Shown piece after piece: positions 18,815 through 25,157 of a stretch of DNA of 64,000 nucleotides. This DNA is from Candidatus Falkowbacteria bacterium. GTDB lineage: Bacteria; Patescibacteriota; Patescibacteriia; UBA11705. The stretch covers positions 201,631 through 265,630 of the forward strand of contig DOZJ01000006.1 in the NCBI GenBank assembly GCA_003518055.1, in the 5' to 3' direction. Each line of letters starts with the position of its first letter. Position 1 is the stretch's first letter. The notes under the pieces were generated by a model that saw only the letters and a program-made list of their open reading frames with translations, ran no database searches and was not told the DNA's origin. Position numbers and translations under genes: made by a program.

Positions 18815-18852
18815 TTTTTTTTGTACGAAAAAACCTGAACGATGTCAGGTTT
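18815..18852 (-). terminator. rho-independent terminator of the GC-rich cassette A (minus strand)
   Basis: AAACCTGAacgatgTCAGGTTT hairpin, followed on the minus strand by a T-run. Confidence 0.6.
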
Positions 18853-18883
18853 GGGGAAGTTGAGGCGGGAAAGAACTGGTGGG

Positions 18884-19429
18884 CTAGAGGTGGAAGTCGG
18901 TGCAGATGATGGATTCGAGCATGTTGTAGGAGTCGTCCCATTCGGGATGCTCGGGGTCGTGGCAGCGGAGGTCGGGCAGGTCGTCGGCGAAGGTGCCTTG
19001 GGTGACGGTGCCGGCGGGAACGGTGCGTCTGGTGCGGATGGCGACCGTGAGCTCGGCCACGGTCTGCAGCGCGATGATGTCGGGGTGGGTCGGGTCTCCG
19101 GTTTCGCGCAGGATCTCGATGGCGCGTCGGGCGTGATTCGGGCCGTAGTAGAAGTTGTACTGGCCCGTCTCGATCTTCCCGTGCTTCTTCACGTCGCCGA
19201 AGTCGATCACGAAGCGCTTGCCGCCGGCCCAGTCGATGTAGAAGCGGCTGGTGGCGTGTTCGAGCAGAATGGCGAGCGCCCCCACGTCGTCGATGATGTT
19301 GGGGGTGGGGTCGGCGGCGCTGACGCCGAACTTGACGCCGGCGTTGTACAGAGCCGCCAGAATATCTTCCTCGACGAGTCCTTGAACGTCCACGATGCTG
19401 TCGTGGGTGCAGGTGCGATCGAATGGCAT
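18884..19429 (-). CDS. hypothetical protein encoded in GC-rich island A (181 aa)
   Basis: Body ~65% GC against ~40% in the flanks. AAGGAGGAGG RBS and the shared TTGACT-N17-TATAAT promoter immediately upstream, with a terminator downstream. The overlapping plus-strand ORF is regarded as a GC artefact. Confidence 0.55.
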   Translation of the reverse strand: MPFDRTCTHDSIVDVQGLVEEDILAALYNAGVKFGVSAADPTPNIIDDVGALAILLEHATSRFYIDWAGGKRFVIDFGDVKKHGKIETGQYNFYYGPNHARRAIEILRETGDPTHPDIIALQTVAELTVAIRTRRTVPAGTVTQGTFADDLPDLRCHDPEHPEWDDSYNMLESIICTDFHL

Positions 19430-19490
19430 GGTTTTCTCCTCCTCCTTAAAGCGGCCGTTGAGAGCGAAGGAACAGTTGAATTAACTTTAA

Positions 19491-19519
19491 ATTATATCAT
19501 ATATTTATCAAAAAGTCAA
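19491..19519 (-). promoter_or_regulatory. shared promoter module, copy A (TTGACTTTTT-N-TATGATATAAT)
   Basis: Minus-strand -35 TTGACT and -10 TATAAT with a 17-nt spacer. A near-identical 35-nt module recurs at 50097-50128 and 55685-55716. Confidence 0.7.
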
Positions 19520-19753
19520 TAGGCTGGGGGGCGGTTATTGTTTAAACGATATGAGCAGCCTTTATTTGGCTTAAAATGGACGATATTTGTCCTTGGTGGA
19601 ATTGTGTATTATTAATGAACCATGAAGAGCATTTTTTTTGTTGTGAAAAAAAGGAATATTGGGTATAATTTATGGCAGAAGTATAATTGACGTCGGAGAA
19701 ATAAAGCTTAAAAGGATTATAAAAAATAAGTTTATAAATTTAATTTTAATTAT

Positions 19754-20307: not shown

Positions 20308-20357
20308 TGGAAATTGATCCCGCTCCTTACGAGGCGTGGGATTGATGGAAATAAATA

Positions 20358-20409: not shown

Positions 20410-20543
20410 AAATTACTAGGCAGGTAAAAATATAAGCCGCTTCGGGGAAGCGGTTTTTGGTTTATCCACAGGTGGGTTTTGACGTTCGGTTTTTGTTTGG
20501 GTATAGTGGAGGTAGGCGAACAAGAAGCGAACAGAAGAAAGAT

Positions 20544-20609: not shown

Positions 20610-20981
20610 ATGCCTACTTCATATCGAGAATTAAGAATTTGGAAGAAAGGATACGATCTTCTTTTGGAGGTTTATGAAATAACGAGTCATTATCCAAATG
20701 GTGAAAAATTTGGCTTGGTTTCTGATACTAGACGTTCGGCTAATTCGATTATCGCCAATATTGCGGAAAGCCATGGGCGTTATTACTTTCTGGATAAAAT
20801 TAGGGTTTTATATATTGCTAGGGGTGAAGTTGAGGAAGTGAGAAGTCATTTAGAAGTGGCTTTTGGGGTGAATTATTTAACACAAGAAGTTTATAAAAAA
20901 TTAGATTTAGAGTATCAAGGTTTATTAATTGGTTTAAATGAATACATAAACAGCATTTTTAAAGAAAAAAATAAAACTTAA
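20610..20981 (+). CDS. four-helix-bundle protein (23S rRNA intervening-sequence protein / Avd-like family)
   Basis: 123 aa. YRELRIWKKGYDLLLEVYEITSHYP...GLVSDTRRSANSIIANIAESHGR matches the PF05635/TIGR02436 signature. Confidence 0.8.
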   Translation: MPTSYRELRIWKKGYDLLLEVYEITSHYPNGEKFGLVSDTRRSANSIIANIAESHGRYYFLDKIRVLYIARGEVEEVRSHLEVAFGVNYLTQEVYKKLDLEYQGLLIGLNEYINSIFKEKNKT

Positions 20982-21023: not shown

Positions 21024-21626
21024 ATGACTTTAAGCAAGCGTCAAAGTGAAATTCTCAGTTTTATAAAAGAATTTGTCCGTGATTATGATTATTCGCCGAG
21101 TTATCGCGAGATCGGGGAAGCCATGGGAATTTCTTCGCCGGCGACGATTCATCAGCATATGCAGACGCTCAAGGCCAAGGGATATCTGGATATTGATCCG
21201 AACGCGCCGCGGTCATTGCAGCTAACTAGCAAGGTGATGAAATTGGGCAAGAGCATTGAGCTGCCCCTTCAGGGGTTGATTGCCGCGGGTGAGCCGATTG
21301 AGGCGGTGATGCAGAATGAAACTATCGCGGTGCCGGTTGATTTTGTCACCAACGACAATTCTTACGTTTTGAAGGTCAAGGGGTTATCGATGATTGATGA
21401 GGGAATTTGGGATGGCGATTATGTGGTGGTGGAATACAACCCATCACCTAAAAATGGGGATGTGGTTGTGGCCTTGCTTGATAATGCTTATGTGACATTG
21501 AAAAAGTTTTTTCGGGAAAAGACTCGCATTCGATTACAGCCGGCCAATGCCAGCATGAAACCGATTTACTGTAAGGATGTGATTATTCGGGGTGTGGTCA
21601 AGGCGATTATAAGAAAGTTCGCGTGA
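21024..21626 (+). CDS. lexA: LexA repressor (S24 peptidase)
   Basis: 200 aa with an N-terminal wHTH, an AAGEP cleavage region, and a catalytic Ser (GLSMIDEGI) and Lys (VTLKKF). Confidence 0.85.
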   Translation: MTLSKRQSEILSFIKEFVRDYDYSPSYREIGEAMGISSPATIHQHMQTLKAKGYLDIDPNAPRSLQLTSKVMKLGKSIELPLQGLIAAGEPIEAVMQNETIAVPVDFVTNDNSYVLKVKGLSMIDEGIWDGDYVVVEYNPSPKNGDVVVALLDNAYVTLKKFFREKTRIRLQPANASMKPIYCKDVIIRGVVKAIIRKFA

Positions 21627-21918
21627 TGATTAAAAAGAATGGAGGCAGGATGAATCAAGTTCAGAGTTTGGCTACTGGTAGGAGATGCTGAAACGAGTTC
21701 AGCATGACGATAATTCAGGTTTGGTCATTCTGAACTTGCTAATAGATGTAATAAAAATAAATAAATAAATAACTAACTAAGGGGGCTCGTTTATTGGGTA
21801 ATTTACAAGCATGGTTATCCAACAGCGTTTCCCCCGCCAAAACAAAAATGTATGTCAAAAAGAAAAGTCCGGTCGTTTTATCGACGTTATTTCAAGGCGT
21901 ATTTTGAAGCATTAACAA

Positions 21919-22179
21919 TTGAAGTTTAATTCTATGTACAGCAAAATAAACGAAAAAATTGAAGTCTTGTGCGCTTACGTCAAAAATAAATCTTTGCCGC
22001 TGTATTTCCGCTGGGGTGAGAAAAAATATAAGGTTGATAAAGTTAATTTGGTTCATTCGATGAGGCGCGGTCGTGATAAGCTGTATTTTTATTCAGTCAG
22101 TAACAAAGATAATTTTTTTAAGTTATGTTTTGATACGGAAAAAAATCAGTGGATGCTGGTGGAAAGATTTTGCCAATAG
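21919..22179 (+). CDS. hypothetical protein (86 aa)
   Basis: ORF only. Confidence 0.3.
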   Translation: MKFNSMYSKINEKIEVLCAYVKNKSLPLYFRWGEKKYKVDKVNLVHSMRRGRDKLYFYSVSNKDNFFKLCFDTEKNQWMLVERFCQ

Positions 22180-22196
22180 AAATAAAATATTAATTT

Positions 22197-22643
22197 ATGC
22201 CTGATAGACACAGCCTGATTCACGCTTCCTACTTGGTTTTAATTAAGGATAATAAAGTGCTTTTGGCTCGAAGAATCAATACTGGTTATGAAGACGGGAA
22301 TTATTCTCTGATAGCCGGTCATGTGGAGCGGAGTGAAACTTTCACTGAATGTGTAATCAGGGAATCCATGGAGGAGGGGCGGATTATAATTAAAGCTGAG
22401 GATTTGCGAGTGGTTCATGTAATGCAGAGAAATTCTAAAGAAAAAGTAGCTAATGAACGGCTCGATGTGTTTTTCGTCGCGGAAAAGTGGTCCGGCGAGC
22501 CGATGATTAATGAACCACATAAGTGCGATTATATGGGTTGGTTTGACATGGATCATTTACCTGAGAATATCATTCCATATATCAAACACGCTTTGGAACA
22601 GATTCAACGCCGGAATTTTTACAGCGAGTATGGCTGGCATTAA
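22197..22643 (+). CDS. NUDIX hydrolase
   Basis: Nudix box GHVERSETFTECVIRESMEEGRI (GX5EX7REUXEEXGU). Confidence 0.8.
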   Translation: MPDRHSLIHASYLVLIKDNKVLLARRINTGYEDGNYSLIAGHVERSETFTECVIRESMEEGRIIIKAEDLRVVHVMQRNSKEKVANERLDVFFVAEKWSGEPMINEPHKCDYMGWFDMDHLPENIIPYIKHALEQIQRRNFYSEYGWH

Positions 22644-22764
22644 TTAGTGTAGAAAGTTTTTGTTAATAGAACGTGAAATTTATTTATGAATACTTTTGTT
22701 CTTGAATAAAAAAGACAATCCGATTGGGGATTGTTTTTATAATTTTGTCAGGAGTAGTTACTTC

Positions 22765-23082
22765 TTATCTGTAGCTATAATACTGCGGCTCGTCGGGCTG
22801 CGCATTTTTGTACAATTTTACCCCACCATAAGTAAAACCAATTATGCCGCAGCTGGTAATGATAGCAAGTGCGATACTTGCCCCGATTTGTTTCATGATT
22901 GGAATCAGAGTGGGGTCAATGATCGCGGTAATGACGCCAATGACGTAGCTTATTGGGAGGCCTAGGAAGTAGAGAATTAGCCCTGAGCCAAAGAATCCGA
23001 TTGCACAGCCGATTAGCGCCCAAAACAGAAACTCCATAGTTATCCAGACCCAGCGATTAATATGGTTTTTGGCAGCTTCCAT
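22765..23082 (-). CDS. small membrane protein (glycine-zipper rich), member 3 of a tandem trio
   Basis: 105 aa with 2-3 TM helices and GxxxG motifs, paralogous in character to the two upstream genes. Confidence 0.45.
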   Translation of the reverse strand: MEAAKNHINRWVWITMEFLFWALIGCAIGFFGSGLILYFLGLPISYVIGVITAIIDPTLIPIMKQIGASIALAIITSCGIIGFTYGGVKLYKNAQPDEPQYYSYR

Positions 23083-23155
23083 TTCAGAACCTTCCCTTGT
23101 TGCGGTGATCGGAGACTAAATGAGATTGTTTTTGTTCTGGATGAAGATTCGATTT

Positions 23156-23467
23156 TTAGGCCGGAAGTGATTTCTTGTAGGCTTTTTTGCTAAAATCGAG
23201 GCCAAATAGAACGAAGCCAATGGAGCCTCCGACCCAAATCCCTATGGGATAAATCCACTGGAAGAAAAATATCACGGTATCATGCAGAGATGTGGTGGAA
23301 AAAAGAAAGCTATACGCGGGTGAAAGAAGGTAGGCAGCAAAGAAAATTCCGATAAGGGCTATTGCTGTAATTAGGCCTCCAATAATAGCACCCCCGATAC
23401 CGCCGCCAATGAAACCGCTAATTGACCAGAGAAAGGCTGAGAATTTTTTGGTTTTGAATTGGTTCAT
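23156..23467 (-). CDS. small membrane protein (glycine-zipper rich), member 2 of a tandem trio
   Basis: 103 aa with a GGGIGGAIIGGLITAIALIG glycine-zipper TM. Confidence 0.45.
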   Translation of the reverse strand: MNQFKTKKFSAFLWSISGFIGGGIGGAIIGGLITAIALIGIFFAAYLLSPAYSFLFSTTSLHDTVIFFFQWIYPIGIWVGGSIGFVLFGLDFSKKAYKKSLPA

Positions 23468-23515
23468 GTTGAATCCTTTCTTTGGCGATGGGTTTTATGA
23501 TTAAAATGTCTCTGA

Positions 23516-23812
23516 TTAATCTTTTTTCAAATCCCAGTATACACCGTCTAGGGCACAGTATACTCCACCCCAGATTAGTCCAATGGCAATGCCCATGATA
23601 TAGCAGATATATCTAAGAGTTATTCCGAATTGTTGAACTGCTGGAATGGATTCAGGGCTAAAAGTTTGAATAAACGCATAGGCGATATTGCTGATAATGA
23701 CAGCCAAGACGAGTGCGATAGCGAATCCGCAGATAGCTCCGAAAGCGCCGCCGGCAAGAAACCAGCTGGTAGCGATTCCTGCATTTCGAATTGTGGCCAT
23801 GGTTCTTGTCAT
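23516..23812 (-). CDS. small membrane protein (glycine-zipper rich), member 1 of a tandem trio
   Basis: 98 aa. Strong TTGACA-N17-TAATAT promoter at 23850-23878 (minus) and an AAAGGAGG RBS. Confidence 0.5.
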   Translation of the reverse strand: MTRTMATIRNAGIATSWFLAGGAFGAICGFAIALVLAVIISNIAYAFIQTFSPESIPAVQQFGITLRYICYIMGIAIGLIWGGVYCALDGVYWDLKKD

Positions 23813-23849
23813 GTTGGTCCTCCTTTTGTGTGGGCTGGCGGAATAGTGA

Positions 23850-23878
23850 ATATTAACCTTTTAAAAATAAGTTGTCAA
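23850..23878 (-). promoter_or_regulatory. promoter of the small-membrane-protein operon (divergent from dinB)
   Basis: On the minus strand, TTGACA (plus 23873-23878) with a 17-nt spacer and TAATAT (plus 23850-23855). Confidence 0.55.
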
Positions 23879-23945
23879 TCCTGTCTCTCGTCCCGATTTT
23901 CGCGAAGGGCGGGATGGCGAGAAGCGGGATCAATGTTTTTGAGAT

Positions 23946-25157
23946 ATGCAGCGGATTATTTTTCACATTGACATGGATTCGTATTTTGCCACGCTGGAGC
24001 AGCAGGCTAATCCGTTTTTGCGCGGCAAACCGGTCGGTGTCAGCGGCAAGGAGGATTCCCGAACGGTGATTGTGGCGGCGTCGCGTGAAGCCAAGCAATT
24101 TGGCGTGAAAACAGCAATGAGTTTGTTTGAGGCGCGAAAATTGTGTCCACAGATGTATTTGGTTGAAGGTGATGGGCCGAAATATCGGTTTGTAACCGAT
24201 GAGTTTATTAAAATTTTTAAACGCGTGTCATCACAAGTTGAAATTTATAGCATTGATGAAGCGTTTTTGGATTTGACCGGGTATGTCAATGATTTTAAGG
24301 CGGCGAGAATTAGGGCGCTTTGGATCAAGGAGCAGTTGAAAATCAAGGCGGGTGAGTGGGTCACATGCTCCATTGGGATCGCCAAAAATAAATTGCTGGC
24401 CAAAGTGGCCTCAGATTTGAATAAACCAAATGGATTGGTGGTGATTAACGATACAAATTTATTTAATATTATTGATAAGTTGAAACTAACGGATTTTTGG
24501 GGGCTCGGACCGCGGATCAATCGGCGGCTGGAAGCAATGGGAATTGAAACGGTGAAGAAACTTCGAGCTTATCCGGTTGCCGAGTTGATAAAAGAGTTTG
24601 GGTTGTTTTACGGTCGCAAATTGCATGATATGGTTAGAGGCGAAGATGTCGGATCGGTGGTATCTGACTACAATGAACCAGCGGTGAAGTCTGTTAGCCG
24701 GGCCTATACTTTGGATCGTGATACTTGGGACAAAGGAGAAATTTTTCAGGTGCTGGCGCATTTGTGTTATAAATGCGGTCGAGAACTCAGGCGGAAAAAA
24801 ATCGCCGGCCGAACTTTGGAATATTATTGGCGTTATGATGATTTTACTCATGCCGGTTTTAGATTCACATTAAAAAAGAAGATTGATGATGGGTTGGAGT
24901 TATTCAAAATCGGGCAGGTAAAATTAATCAGATATGATTTGGCCAAAGCGGTGCGTTTGGTTGGCGTTAGGGTAGCCAATTTGGAGCCGGTTAGCGGTCA
25001 GCAGTTATTGTTTACCAATGAACGTAAATGGCAGCGGCTGGGGCCGTTTTTGGACCAAATTAATGACACTTATGGGGAATTAACGATAAAATCAGCTTAT
25101 TTGGTAAAAAAGTCTAGATTAAGAAATAAAATAGGCGGGTTTAAGTATGGAGATTGA
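23946..25157 (+). CDS. dinB: DNA polymerase IV (DinB, Y-family)
   Basis: 403 aa with an N-terminal IFHIDMDSYFATLE motif and Y-family palm, fingers and little-finger organisation. Confidence 0.85.
   Translation: MQRIIFHIDMDSYFATLEQQANPFLRGKPVGVSGKEDSRTVIVAASREAKQFGVKTAMSLFEARKLCPQMYLVEGDGPKYRFVTDEFIKIFKRVSSQVEIYSIDEAFLDLTGYVNDFKAARIRALWIKEQLKIKAGEWVTCSIGIAKNKLLAKVASDLNKPNGLVVINDTNLFNIIDKLKLTDFWGLGPRINRRLEAMGIETVKKLRAYPVAELIKEFGLFYGRKLHDMVRGEDVGSVVSDYNEPAVKSVSRAYTLDRDTWDKGEIFQVLAHLCYKCGRELRRKKIAGRTLEYYWRYDDFTHAGFRFTLKKKIDDGLELFKIGQVKLIRYDLAKAVRLVGVRVANLEPVSGQQLLFTNERKWQRLGPFLDQINDTYGELTIKSAYLVKKSRLRNKIGGFKYGD

What the first reader, a model, noticed from the sequence alone, without database searches (positions are those of the whole stretch)
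22765..23880. Three tandem paralogous ~100-aa glycine-zipper membrane proteins between NUDIX and dinB, expressed divergently from dinB with a strong promoter
Genes 23516-23812, 23156-23467 and 22765-23082 (minus strand) encode small 2-3-TM proteins rich in GxxxG/GxxxA packing motifs. They lie in an operon with a consensus TTGACA-N17-TAATAT promoter and an AAAGGAGG RBS, back to back with dinB and ~2 kb from lexA. Candidate roles are holin-like or bacteriocin-like peptides, membrane stress or SOS-associated small toxins, or envelope biogenesis. Nothing in the sequence assigns them to a known family.
Basis: partly seen in the sequence, partly recalled or inferred. Interest (0 to 1): 0.5.

Follow-up and report, generated by a model that had tools for sequence, protein, structure and literature searches.

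The report
Orphan small membrane protein gene trio
Three small two-helix membrane protein genes with no relatives in public data, apart from one gene in a sister species, were inserted into the DNA-damage (lexA-dinB) locus of a groundwater Candidatus Falkowbacteria bacterium, and nothing in the sequence shows that they respond to DNA damage.

Summary
The three minus-strand ORFs, their promoter, ribosome-binding site and terminator are all present as described. AlphaFold2 models of A and C are two-helix hairpins. GxxxG motifs are enriched in A and B, weakly in C.

The family is an orphan. A profile search of 1.84 billion representative proteins returned only the three genes themselves, and Pfam, NCBIfam, PHROGs, PADLOC, PDB and phage searches found nothing.

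Synteny explains the location. Other Patescibacteria have lexA, an 82-aa gene and dinB on one strand, with the 82-aa gene abutting dinB. Only the closest relative (DinB 74% identical) has a gene there: one minus-strand small membrane gene, frameshifted, and homologous to A and C. The window lineage expanded this insert to three genes and separately gained the NUDIX gene.

A, C and the sister gene are demonstrably related. B shares only architecture.

The clade's LexA operator is GTTCG-N6-GTTCG and scores 23-26 bits at the lexA promoter. The best site between A and dinB scores 10 bits and is absent from the sister species. The SOS link is therefore positional.

Holin, bacteriocin and division-inhibitor readings each fail defining features. 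The most likely reading is a fast-evolving hairpin membrane protein that oligomerises, with unknown physiological role. Interest is modest.

The parts
23850..23878 (-). Sigma-70-type promoter of the trio: TTGACA, 17-nt spacer, TAATAT
   Evidence: 10 of 12 matches. A TTGACA-N17-TAAGAT lies at the equivalent position in sister locus L090.
23819..23826 (-). Shine-Dalgarno AAAGGAGG, 6 nt upstream of the ATG of gene A
   Evidence: Only 7 of 30 long genes in the window have any SD-like motif. The RBS region resembles that of the upstream ORF in L090.
23516..23812 (-). Gene A, 98 aa. Two-helix hairpin membrane protein with a G21-G25-G29-A33-A37-S41 stripe in helix 1 and G74-G78-G82 in helix 2
   Evidence: Retrieved by the B+C+D' profile at E=3.9e-5, ranked first.
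23156..23467 (-). Gene B, 103 aa. Very glycine-rich membrane protein of the same size and hydrophobicity layout; homology to A and C not demonstrated
   Evidence: RBS-like GAAAGGA lies 6 nt upstream of the ATG.
22765..23082 (-). Gene C, 105 aa. Two-helix hairpin with a disordered C-terminal tail; probable ortholog of the single sister-species gene D
   Evidence: C against D' gives a Smith-Waterman z of 6.4 with global shuffles and 2.55 with block shuffles. The downstream terminator is homologous in the two species.
22711..22738 (.). Bidirectional intrinsic terminator ending both the trio (minus strand) and the lexA, 86-aa gene, NUDIX transcript (plus strand)
   Evidence: Related hairpin ACAATC...GATTGT after D in L090.
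23802..23817 (+). Weak LexA-box-like sequence GTTCTTGTCATGTTGG overlapping the start codon of A; probably not functional
   Evidence: PSSM score 10.1 bits against 23-26 bits for real boxes; rank 14 of 127,970 positions; no counterpart in L090.
22197..22643 (+). Context: NUDIX hydrolase gene, a separate insertion specific to this lineage
   Evidence: Pfam PF00293 at 5.7e-15. Absent from L090 and all other relatives.
22647..22669 (+). Context: relic copy of the 3' end of the 86-aa gene (compare 22158-22179), marking the NUDIX insertion
   Evidence: blastn 90% over 20 nt to the 3' end of the L090 81-aa gene.
21919..22179 (+). Context: 86-aa gene (weak DUF6504 match). In all relatives without the insert it abuts dinB
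   Evidence: It is 88% identical to the L090 copy.
23946..25157 (+). Context: dinB (Y-family polymerase), divergent from gene A and cut off from the lexA operon by the insert
   Evidence: Pfam IMS, IMS_C and IMS_HHH; synteny.
20484..20532 (.). Context: the only strong LexA operators in the window, two GTTCG-N6-GTTCG boxes flanking the -10 of the lexA-operon promoter
   Evidence: Conserved in L012, L090, L095 and L097 (both boxes) and in L014 and L100 (first box).

Best explanation
Gene structure. A, B and C form a tricistronic operon with its own sigma-70-type promoter and intrinsic terminator.

Evolutionary history.
- An ancestral gene, seen as the single gene D in the sister species, was inserted on the opposite strand between the 82-aa gene and dinB. 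This broke a lexA, 82-aa gene, dinB operon that other Patescibacteria retain.
- In the window lineage the insert became three genes. A and C are demonstrably related, most simply by tandem duplication. The origin of B is open.
- The family evolves very fast: C and D' are 29% identical, while the neighbouring LexA, 86-aa protein and DinB are 91%, 88% and 74% identical.

Mechanism (inferred, not shown). Each protein inserts into the cytoplasmic membrane as an N-in/C-in helical hairpin. The turn sits at a conserved S/D-P motif. Stripes of small residues (GxxxG/A/S) on both helices of A and B pack the hairpins into homo- or hetero-oligomeric bundles. Such bundles would either form a small channel-like assembly or attach to a larger membrane complex.

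Regulation. The trio is probably not under direct LexA control. Its place in the SOS locus is a by-product of where the insertion landed. The physiological role remains unknown.
For: Shown:
- ORFs, promoter, RBS and terminator are present.
- Strand-specific GC skew fits minus-strand coding.
- AlphaFold2 gives two-helix hairpins for A and C.
- GxxxG motifs are enriched.
- Basic residues lie at both termini and few in the loop.
- The family is an orphan.
- Seven relatives have the 82-aa gene abutting dinB with no membrane gene between them. In an eighth, L094, a 23S rRNA IVP-like gene takes that position.
- A single syntenic gene D occurs only in the closest relative.
- D is the best non-self hit of the A/B/C profile among about 7,900 ORFs: E=0.015 as called, and 8.4e-5 after correcting the frameshift.
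- Leave-one-out profiles retrieve A and C.
- Promoter layout, RBS region and terminator are homologous in the two species.
- Strong LexA boxes occur only at the lexA promoter.

Inferred: topology (positive-inside rule), oligomerisation through the small-residue stripes, and absence of SOS control.
Against: - There are no expression, localisation or interaction data.
- B cannot be shown to be homologous to the others.
- The glycine zipper is absent from D', so it is not a conserved family trait.
- D is split by a frameshift at a T6 run in all four sister-species contigs. The gene may therefore be dispensable or decaying.
- A 10-bit LexA-like site overlaps the start codon of A. About 0.04 such sites would be expected by chance in that 180-bp spacer, so weak LexA control cannot be excluded.
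- Codon usage is ambiguous for A and B.
- All ten contigs of this organism are near-identical, with a single mismatch in L009, so selection cannot be measured.
- The AlphaFold2 models rest on a three-sequence alignment.
Confidence: 0.55

Rival explanations
1. SOS-linked small membrane effectors: a DNA-damage-induced division inhibitor like YneA, SosA, ChiZ or DivS, or a membrane-depolarising toxin like TisB or DinQ. Induction would come through the weak LexA-like site at the start of A. Alternatively, the trio would be repressed by antisense read-through from the LexA-controlled lexA, 86-aa gene, NUDIX transcript.
For: - The genes lie inside the lexA-dinB locus, divergent from dinB.
- Known Gram-positive inhibitors are small, poorly conserved membrane proteins located next to lexA (PMC6851548).
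- A LexA-like site of 10.1 bits at 23802-23817 ranks 14th of 127,970 positions.
- Fast sequence divergence is typical of that class.
Against: - Real LexA boxes in this clade score 23-26 bits, always have G at position 5 of each half-site and have a T-rich spacer. The 23802 site lacks these features.
- The sister species has no equivalent site (best 3.5 bits).
- The locus position is explained by insertion into an operon.
- The proteins are two-helix hairpins with both termini predicted inside. Known inhibitors have a single TM helix and an extracellular C-terminal domain.
- A bidirectional terminator blocks read-through.
Confidence: 0.12
2. Remnant of a mobile element or prophage: a holin or pinholin-like protein, a superinfection-exclusion or immunity protein, or a toxin cassette that arrived with its own promoter and terminator.
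For: - The genes arrived as an insertion carrying their own promoter, strong SD and terminator.
- An AAAGGAGG SD is unusual in this genome, where 7 of 30 genes have an SD-like motif.
- The predicted N-in/C-in two-TM topology with charged C-terminal tails and glycine-zipper helices matches class II holins and pinholins (own knowledge).
- The family is an orphan and evolves fast.
Against: - No PHROG family scored better than E=0.16.
- There were no tblastn hits in 50,697 phage genomes.
- No relative was found in IMG/VR contigs, and BFVD fold hits were all above E=0.4.
- No endolysin, integrase or other phage gene was found among the flanking genes scanned with Pfam.
- There were no PADLOC hits.
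- A near-consensus promoter with no recognisable operator is hard to reconcile with a lethal holin.
Confidence: 0.12
3. Some or all of the ORFs are not functional protein-coding genes. They could be decaying relics or chance ORFs in inserted DNA.
For: - Codon usage does not favour the annotated frame for A and B.
- There are no homologues outside two lineages.
- The sister-species copy is frameshifted in four contigs.
- There are no polymorphism data to test constraint.
Against: - Three consecutive ORFs of about 100 codons fill the interval on one strand.
- Each is preceded by a purine-rich RBS-like motif, and a promoter and terminator bracket them.
- Strand GC skew fits minus-strand genes.
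- A and C have the same modelled hairpin architecture with confident helices, and B has the same hydrophobicity layout.
- Protein-level similarity between A, C and D' persists although DNA similarity is gone.
Confidence: 0.08
4. Secreted class IIb-like bacteriocin peptides with GxxxG motifs.
For: GxxxG motifs are present, and several small genes are co-transcribed.
Against: - At about 100 aa they are roughly twice the size typical of the class (own knowledge).
- There is no double-glycine leader; the N-termini are basic and run directly into helix 1.
- No C39-peptidase ABC exporter or immunity gene was found among the flanking genes scanned with Pfam.
- No bacteriocin family appeared in Pfam at E<=1.
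Confidence: 0.03

Closest known systems
SOS-induced small membrane division inhibitors of Gram-positive bacteria (YneA, SosA, ChiZ, DivS)
   Same: They are small, poorly conserved membrane proteins encoded within the lexA neighbourhood and transcribed divergently from an SOS gene (PMC6851548).
   Different: Those have one TM helix and an extracellular C-terminal part, often with a LysM domain. They lie directly beside lexA and are LexA-controlled. The trio are two-helix hairpins with both termini predicted inside, lie 2.2 kb from lexA, have no credible LexA box, and occur as three genes.
Class II holins and pinholins (for example phage 21 S21)
   Same: They are 70-100 aa, have two TM helices with an N-in/C-in topology, have a charged C-terminal tail, and use a glycine-zipper face for oligomerisation (own knowledge).
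   Different: There is no phage context, no endolysin or spanin, no PHROG or phage-genome match, and no dual-start motif.
Glycine-zipper small membrane protein families (Pfam Gly-zipper_2TM/Rick_17kDa_Anti, Gly-zipper_Omp, Gly-zipper_YMGG; GlsB/YeaQ/YmgE 'Transgly_assoc')
   Same: They are short proteins whose helices carry GxxxG repeats.
   Different: None of these Pfam models matched A, B or C even at E<=1. The sister-species homologue lacks the zipper.
F-type ATP synthase c subunit and AtpI
   Same: Both are helical hairpins with a glycine-rich first helix. The c subunits are the top-ranked Foldseek PDB hits, and A gives a sub-threshold Pfam ATP-synt_I match (17.7 bits against a cut-off of 25.1).
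   Different: All Foldseek E-values exceed 1. Helix 2 has no mid-membrane carboxylate, the loop has no R-Q/N-P motif, and there is no atp operon context.
LexA-regulated type I toxins TisB and DinQ
   Same: They are hydrophobic membrane peptides associated with the SOS regulon (PMC3567139, listed).
   Different: Those are single-helix peptides (TisB 29 aa and DinQ 27 aa from own knowledge; DinQ single-TM per PMC3567139) with LexA boxes and antisense RNAs. Here the proteins are about 100-aa hairpins with no credible LexA box.

Membership tests
Gram-positive SOS division inhibitors (YneA/SosA/ChiZ/DivS) | Promoter carries a LexA operator (LexA-repressed) | tested here: not met
   The clade operator is GTTCG-N6-GTTCG and scores 23-26 bits at lexA promoters. 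The best site between A and dinB scores 10.1 bits, and the best in the sister species scores 3.5 bits.
Gram-positive SOS division inhibitors (YneA/SosA/ChiZ/DivS) | Single TM segment with an extracellular C-terminal domain (often LysM) | tested here: not met
   AlphaFold2 gives two long helices forming a hairpin. There was no LysM or other Pfam domain. Basic residues lie at both ends.
Gram-positive SOS division inhibitors (YneA/SosA/ChiZ/DivS) | Gene directly adjacent to, and divergent from, lexA | tested here: not met
   The trio is divergent from dinB and lies 2.2 kb from lexA, with the 86-aa gene and the NUDIX gene in between.
Gram-positive SOS division inhibitors (YneA/SosA/ChiZ/DivS) | Expression blocks cell division | not testable with these tools
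   This needs an expression experiment.
Holins / pinholins | Sequence membership in a holin family | tested here: not met
   The PHROGs scan gave no family below E=0.16 and none annotated as holin. Pfam gave none.
Holins / pinholins | Lysis cassette context (endolysin, spanin, phage genes) | tested here: not met
   The scanned neighbours are lexA, the NUDIX gene, dinB, a Cys-rich protein, membrane and beta-propeller proteins and a PBP. There was no phage or viral-contig match.
Holins / pinholins | Two or more TM helices, small size, charged C-terminus | tested here: met
   The feature is generic and not sufficient for membership.
Pfam glycine-zipper families and GlsB/YeaQ/YmgE | Match to the family HMM at or above the gathering score | tested here: not met
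   No such family was listed for A, B or C at E<=1. NCBIfam gave none.
Class IIb bacteriocins | Double-glycine leader and a dedicated C39-ABC exporter or immunity gene nearby | tested here: not met
   The N-termini are basic and continuous with helix 1, with no leader. No exporter was found among the neighbours scanned.
F-type ATP synthase subunit c | Essential carboxylate in the middle of helix 2, polar R-Q/N-P loop, atp operon | tested here: not met
   There is no mid-helix D or E in helix 2 of A, B or C. The loop is S/D-P-x-x. Foldseek E-values exceed 1.
Tandem paralogue family (A, B, C and sister-species D) | Sequence similarity above a composition-matched background | tested here: inconclusive
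   Leave-one-out retrieval among about 7,900 ORFs gave A at E=3.9e-5, D' at E=8.4e-5 and C at E=0.029, each ranked first. B was not retrieved. Block-shuffle z-scores were A-C 3.1, C-D' 2.55 and A-B 1.2.

The most novel reading that the evidence does not exclude
The trio is a young, rapidly diversifying hetero-oligomeric membrane module that invaded the SOS locus of a CPR bacterium and uncoupled dinB from LexA. It is itself tied to DNA damage, either through the weak LexA-like site over the start codon of A or through antisense interference from the LexA-controlled convergent transcript. In that case it would act as the CPR counterpart of the SOS membrane checkpoint or persistence effectors, but built on an unrelated two-helix scaffold.
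Probability: 0.08. Interest if true: 0.6.

Novelty: new member of a known kind. Interest (0 to 1): 0.3.

Why it matters
CPR bacteria carry many small, lineage-specific membrane proteins of unknown role. This case is unusually well resolved in evolutionary terms. The insertion site is known, the single-copy state survives in a sister species, and the subsequent expansion and the very fast divergence can all be read from the sequences. It also shows that the conserved lexA, 82-aa gene, dinB operon of Patescibacteria has been broken in this lineage. As a result, dinB probably lost direct LexA control. Practically, it is a caution that proximity to SOS genes does not imply SOS regulation. If the proteins did prove to be damage-responsive, they would be a new scaffold for an SOS membrane effector.

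Tried and rejected
- **Sequence searches that found only self or nothing.** All three k-mer-indexed homologue searches returned only the query itself. The exhaustive profile search did the same. Pfam, NCBIfam, PHROGs, PADLOC and a PDB sequence profile gave nothing significant. tblastn against phage genomes and a degenerate-pattern scan of IMG/VR found nothing.
- **Population variation.** Ten contigs of this organism are near-identical, with one mismatch in L009, so no test of selection is possible.
- **Codon-usage frame test.** It was ambiguous for A and B, probably because of their TM composition.
- **LexA operator searches.** The Gram-positive Cheo box GAAC-N4-GTTC has no site near the locus and is not enriched. 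A simple GTTC-N7-GTTC scan allowing one mismatch is at chance level, 43 found against 46 expected. I replaced it with a PSSM built from 11 conserved lexA-promoter sites.
- **dinB 5' region.** An RNA fold of 23866-23948 is not significant (z=-1.5).
- **Other paralogues.** A search of the window and all fetched loci found none.
- **Literature.** The key paper on the Patescibacteria SOS network (Sanchez-Osuna et al. 2017, PMID 28618189) is not held. I therefore derived the operator here from conserved sites.
Full report
**Observation**

The three minus-strand ORFs exist exactly as described: A 23516-23812 (98 aa), B 23156-23467 (103 aa) and C 22765-23082 (105 aa).

- Upstream of A are TTGACA (23878-23873), a 17-nt spacer and TAATAT (23855-23850).
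- AAAGGAGG (23826-23819) lies 6 nt before the ATG.
- B and C are preceded by GAAAGGA and GGGAAGG.
- A bidirectional hairpin-plus-T-run terminator at 22711-22738 separates C from the convergent NUDIX gene.
- Pfam confirms the flanks: a 23S-rRNA-IVP-like gene at 20610-20981, lexA at 21024-21626, an 86-aa ORF at 21919-22179 (weak DUF6504 match, E=0.007), NUDIX at 22197-22643 and dinB at 23946-25157.
- Sources name the organism as a Candidatus Falkowbacteria bacterium (CPR/Patescibacteria) from groundwater.

**Are they genes?**

Several lines say yes.

- Plus-strand GC skew over 22765-23812 is +0.07. This equals the value for other minus-strand gene blocks (+0.08) and differs from plus-strand genes (+0.23 to +0.31).
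- The interval is filled by three ORFs of about 100 codons on one strand, bracketed by a promoter and a terminator.
- A homologous gene occupies the same position in a sister species (see Evolutionary history).

Two tests were uninformative. Codon usage is ambiguous for A and B and mildly positive for C. All ten contigs of this organism are near-identical, with one mismatch in L009, so constraint cannot be measured.

The promoter match alone is not statistically remarkable: 14 promoter-like sites in 5 kb against 12.1 expected. However, a TTGACA-N17-TAAGAT sits at the equivalent position in the sister species. A strong SD is unusual in this genome, where only 7 of 30 long genes have any SD-like motif.

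**Protein features**

- AlphaFold2 models A as two helices (2-51 and 53-97, mean pLDDT 81) and C as two helices (2-55 and 57-94, mean pLDDT 72) with a disordered tail. The break falls at the conserved S/D-P motif.
- These are two-helix hairpins, not 3-TM proteins.
- Lys and Arg cluster at both termini, and the loop is nearly uncharged. By the positive-inside rule this suggests an N-in/C-in topology. That is an inference.
- GxxxG is enriched over shuffles: 12 observed against 3.8 expected for A, B and C together, P<0.001. A and B are individually significant, C is weak, and the sister-species protein shows no enrichment.

**Paralogy**

- BLASTP finds only A-C (E=0.006).
- Smith-Waterman z-scores against global shuffles are 4.2 for A-B, 5.9 for A-C and 0.6 for B-C. 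With block shuffles that preserve local composition they fall to 1.2, 3.1 and -0.25.
- Leave-one-out profiles were searched against about 7,900 six-frame ORFs from all fetched loci. They retrieve A (E=3.9e-5, rank 1), C (E=0.029, rank 1) and the sister protein D' (E=8.4e-5, rank 1), but not B.
- A and C are therefore demonstrably related. B shares size, position and architecture only.

**Orphan status**

- Each protein finds only itself among 5.8 billion clusters.
- A profile of the three, run with full HMMER against 1.84 billion representatives, finds only the three.
- Pfam, NCBIfam, PHROGs, PADLOC and a PDB sequence profile give nothing significant. The best is a sub-threshold ATP-synt_I match for A, at 17.7 bits against a cut-off of 25.1.
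- tblastn against 50,697 phage genomes and a pattern scan of IMG/VR found nothing.

**Evolutionary history**

I used DinB to fetch related loci.

- In a Kuenenbacteria genome (L012), other Patescibacteria (L014, L100, L095, L096, L097) and another Falkowbacteria genome (L011, L098), an 82-aa homologue of the window's 86-aa gene abuts or overlaps the dinB start on the same strand. Where enough upstream sequence is held (L012, L014, L100, L095, L097), lexA lies further upstream on that strand. No membrane gene lies between the 82-aa gene and dinB.
- In L094 (DinB 63% identical) an IVP-like gene lies directly upstream of dinB, again with no membrane gene.
- Only the closest relative differs (L090-L093; DinB 74%, LexA 91%, 81-aa protein 88% identical). 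It has one minus-strand small membrane ORF, D (L090 4561-4839, 92 aa), between the 81-aa gene and dinB, and it has no NUDIX gene.
- D is the best non-self hit of the A/B/C profile (E=0.015). Its promoter layout, RBS region and terminator are homologous to those of the window.
- Upstream of D lies a 31-codon ORF with a good SD. Adding one T to a T6 run fuses the two ORFs into a 113-aa D'. D' scores higher against the A/B/C profile (21.8 against 14.6 bits, E=8.4e-5) and aligns end to end with C at 29% identity.
- The same frameshifted sequence occurs in four contigs from four samples. The disruption is therefore probably real. It could be a pseudogene, slippage, or a leader ORF spanning a terminator-like hairpin.

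The NUDIX gene is a separate insertion. A degenerate copy of the 3' end of the 86-aa gene lies just after the NUDIX stop codon (22647-22669, compare 22158-22179).

The most likely sequence of events has three steps:

1. A single hairpin gene was inserted, splitting the operon.
2. The insert expanded to three genes in the window lineage.
3. The NUDIX gene was inserted.

**SOS regulation**

- Aligning the lexA-operon promoters of seven loci reveals two conserved boxes, GTTCG-N6-GTTCG. This is GTTC-N7-GTTC, the direct-repeat type reported for Alphaproteobacteria (PMC8565304).
- One box overlaps the -35 and the other lies just downstream of the -10. In the window they are at 20484-20499 and 20517-20532.
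- A PSSM built from 11 such sites scores them at 23-26 bits. The next best site in the 64 kb scores 14 bits.
- The best site in the A-dinB spacer is GTTCTTGTCATGTTGG at 23802-23817, over the start codon of A. It scores 10.1 bits and ranks 14th of 127,970 positions. About 0.04 such sites would be expected by chance in that spacer.
- The best site in the sister species' spacer scores 3.5 bits.
- The Gram-positive Cheo box is absent.
- Direct LexA control of the trio, and of dinB in this lineage, is therefore not supported, although weak binding cannot be excluded.

**Comparison with known systems**

- Gram-positive SOS division inhibitors (YneA, SosA, ChiZ, DivS) share small size, poor conservation and a lexA-proximal location (PMC6851548). 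The trio fails their defining features: a LexA box, a single TM helix with an external C-terminal domain, and adjacency to lexA.
- Class II holins and pinholins share the topology and the glycine-zipper logic. There is no family match and no lysis or phage context here.
- Class IIb bacteriocins are excluded by size, the missing double-glycine leader and the missing exporter.
- The ATP synthase c subunit is excluded by the missing carboxylate, loop motif and operon context.

**Verdict**

The genes are a lineage-restricted, fast-evolving family of two-helix membrane proteins that landed inside the SOS locus and broke its operon. The SOS, holin and bacteriocin readings each lack their defining evidence.

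The most likely mechanism is oligomerisation of membrane hairpins through small-residue stripes, with unknown physiological role. Confidence is about 0.55 for the structural and evolutionary account, and much lower for any specific function. Interest is modest at 0.3.

Noticed in passing
window 20479-20532; also L012 3130-3178, L014 4654-4668, L090 2497-2547, L095 2705-2755, L097 2736-2785, L100 3654-3668: There is a conserved pair of LexA operators, GTTCG-N6-GTTCG. This is the direct-repeat GTTC-N7-GTTC type reported for Alphaproteobacteria. One box overlaps the -35 and the other lies just after the -10 of the lexA-operon promoter. They score 23-26 bits and are the only strong sites in the 64 kb.
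   Followed up: yes
window 21919-22179; L012 5622-6002, L014 5458-5958 (two copies), L095 4754-5002, L097 4746-4994, L096 547-795, L011 18-230: An 81-86-aa protein with a weak DUF6504 match (E=0.007) is encoded immediately upstream of dinB in every Patescibacteria relative that lacks the insert, and its end often overlaps the dinB start. It is a candidate conserved DinB partner. It is separated from dinB only in the window and L090 lineages.
   Followed up: partly
window 22158-22179 and 22647-22669: The NUDIX gene (22197-22643) is bracketed by the 3' end of the 86-aa gene and a degenerate second copy of that end. The second copy resembles the sister-species sequence more than the window's own current 3' end. 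This looks like an insertion or recombination scar.
   Followed up: partly
L090 4839-4901 (identical in L091-L093): The sister-species homologue is split. A 31-codon ORF with a good SD is followed, after a T6 run, by the 92-aa ORF in another frame. One extra T restores a 113-aa protein that matches the family better. The T run is also the tail of a terminator-like hairpin (L090 4874-4852), so an attenuator with a leader ORF is an alternative to a pseudogene.
   Followed up: partly
whole window: GC skew is very strong and uniformly positive on the plus strand, from +0.07 to +0.32 in 2-kb bins. It stays positive even across minus-strand gene blocks. The whole 64 kb therefore appears to lie on one replichore with an unusually large strand asymmetry.
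   Followed up: no
window 21627-21918 compared with L012 4754-4960: The 292-bp spacer between lexA and the 86-aa gene contains stretches conserved with the Kuenenbacteria locus: ATTTACAAGC, CAAGCATGG and AAAAATGTATGTCAAAAAGAAAAG. It also has a GGGGG...CCCCC hairpin. In L090 the equivalent spacer holds a second IVP-like gene. There was no Rfam hit at gathering score.
   Followed up: no
window 23890-23933 and 20312-20323: The dinB 5' region carries a direct repeat, CGAAGGGCGGGAT and CGAGAAGCGGGAT, and an inverted TCCCG/CGGGA pair. The 12-mer ATTGATCCCGCT recurs downstream of the 96-aa gene at 20312-20323. The RNA fold of 23866-23948 is not significant (z=-1.5).
   Followed up: partly
window 18842-19522 (+) and 18884-19429 (-): Two long ORFs overlap on opposite strands. 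Public gene calls chose the plus-strand 226-aa low-complexity ORF. The minus-strand 181-aa ORF has a 46%-identical counterpart at the syntenic position in L090 (69-623, minus strand). The annotated strand may therefore be wrong.
   Followed up: no
L014 6052-6066 and L100 5052-5066: A LexA-box-like sequence with one mismatch (GATTCGCTTGTTGTTCGC) lies inside the 5' end of dinB in two more distant Patescibacteria. It may be an internal operator.
   Followed up: no
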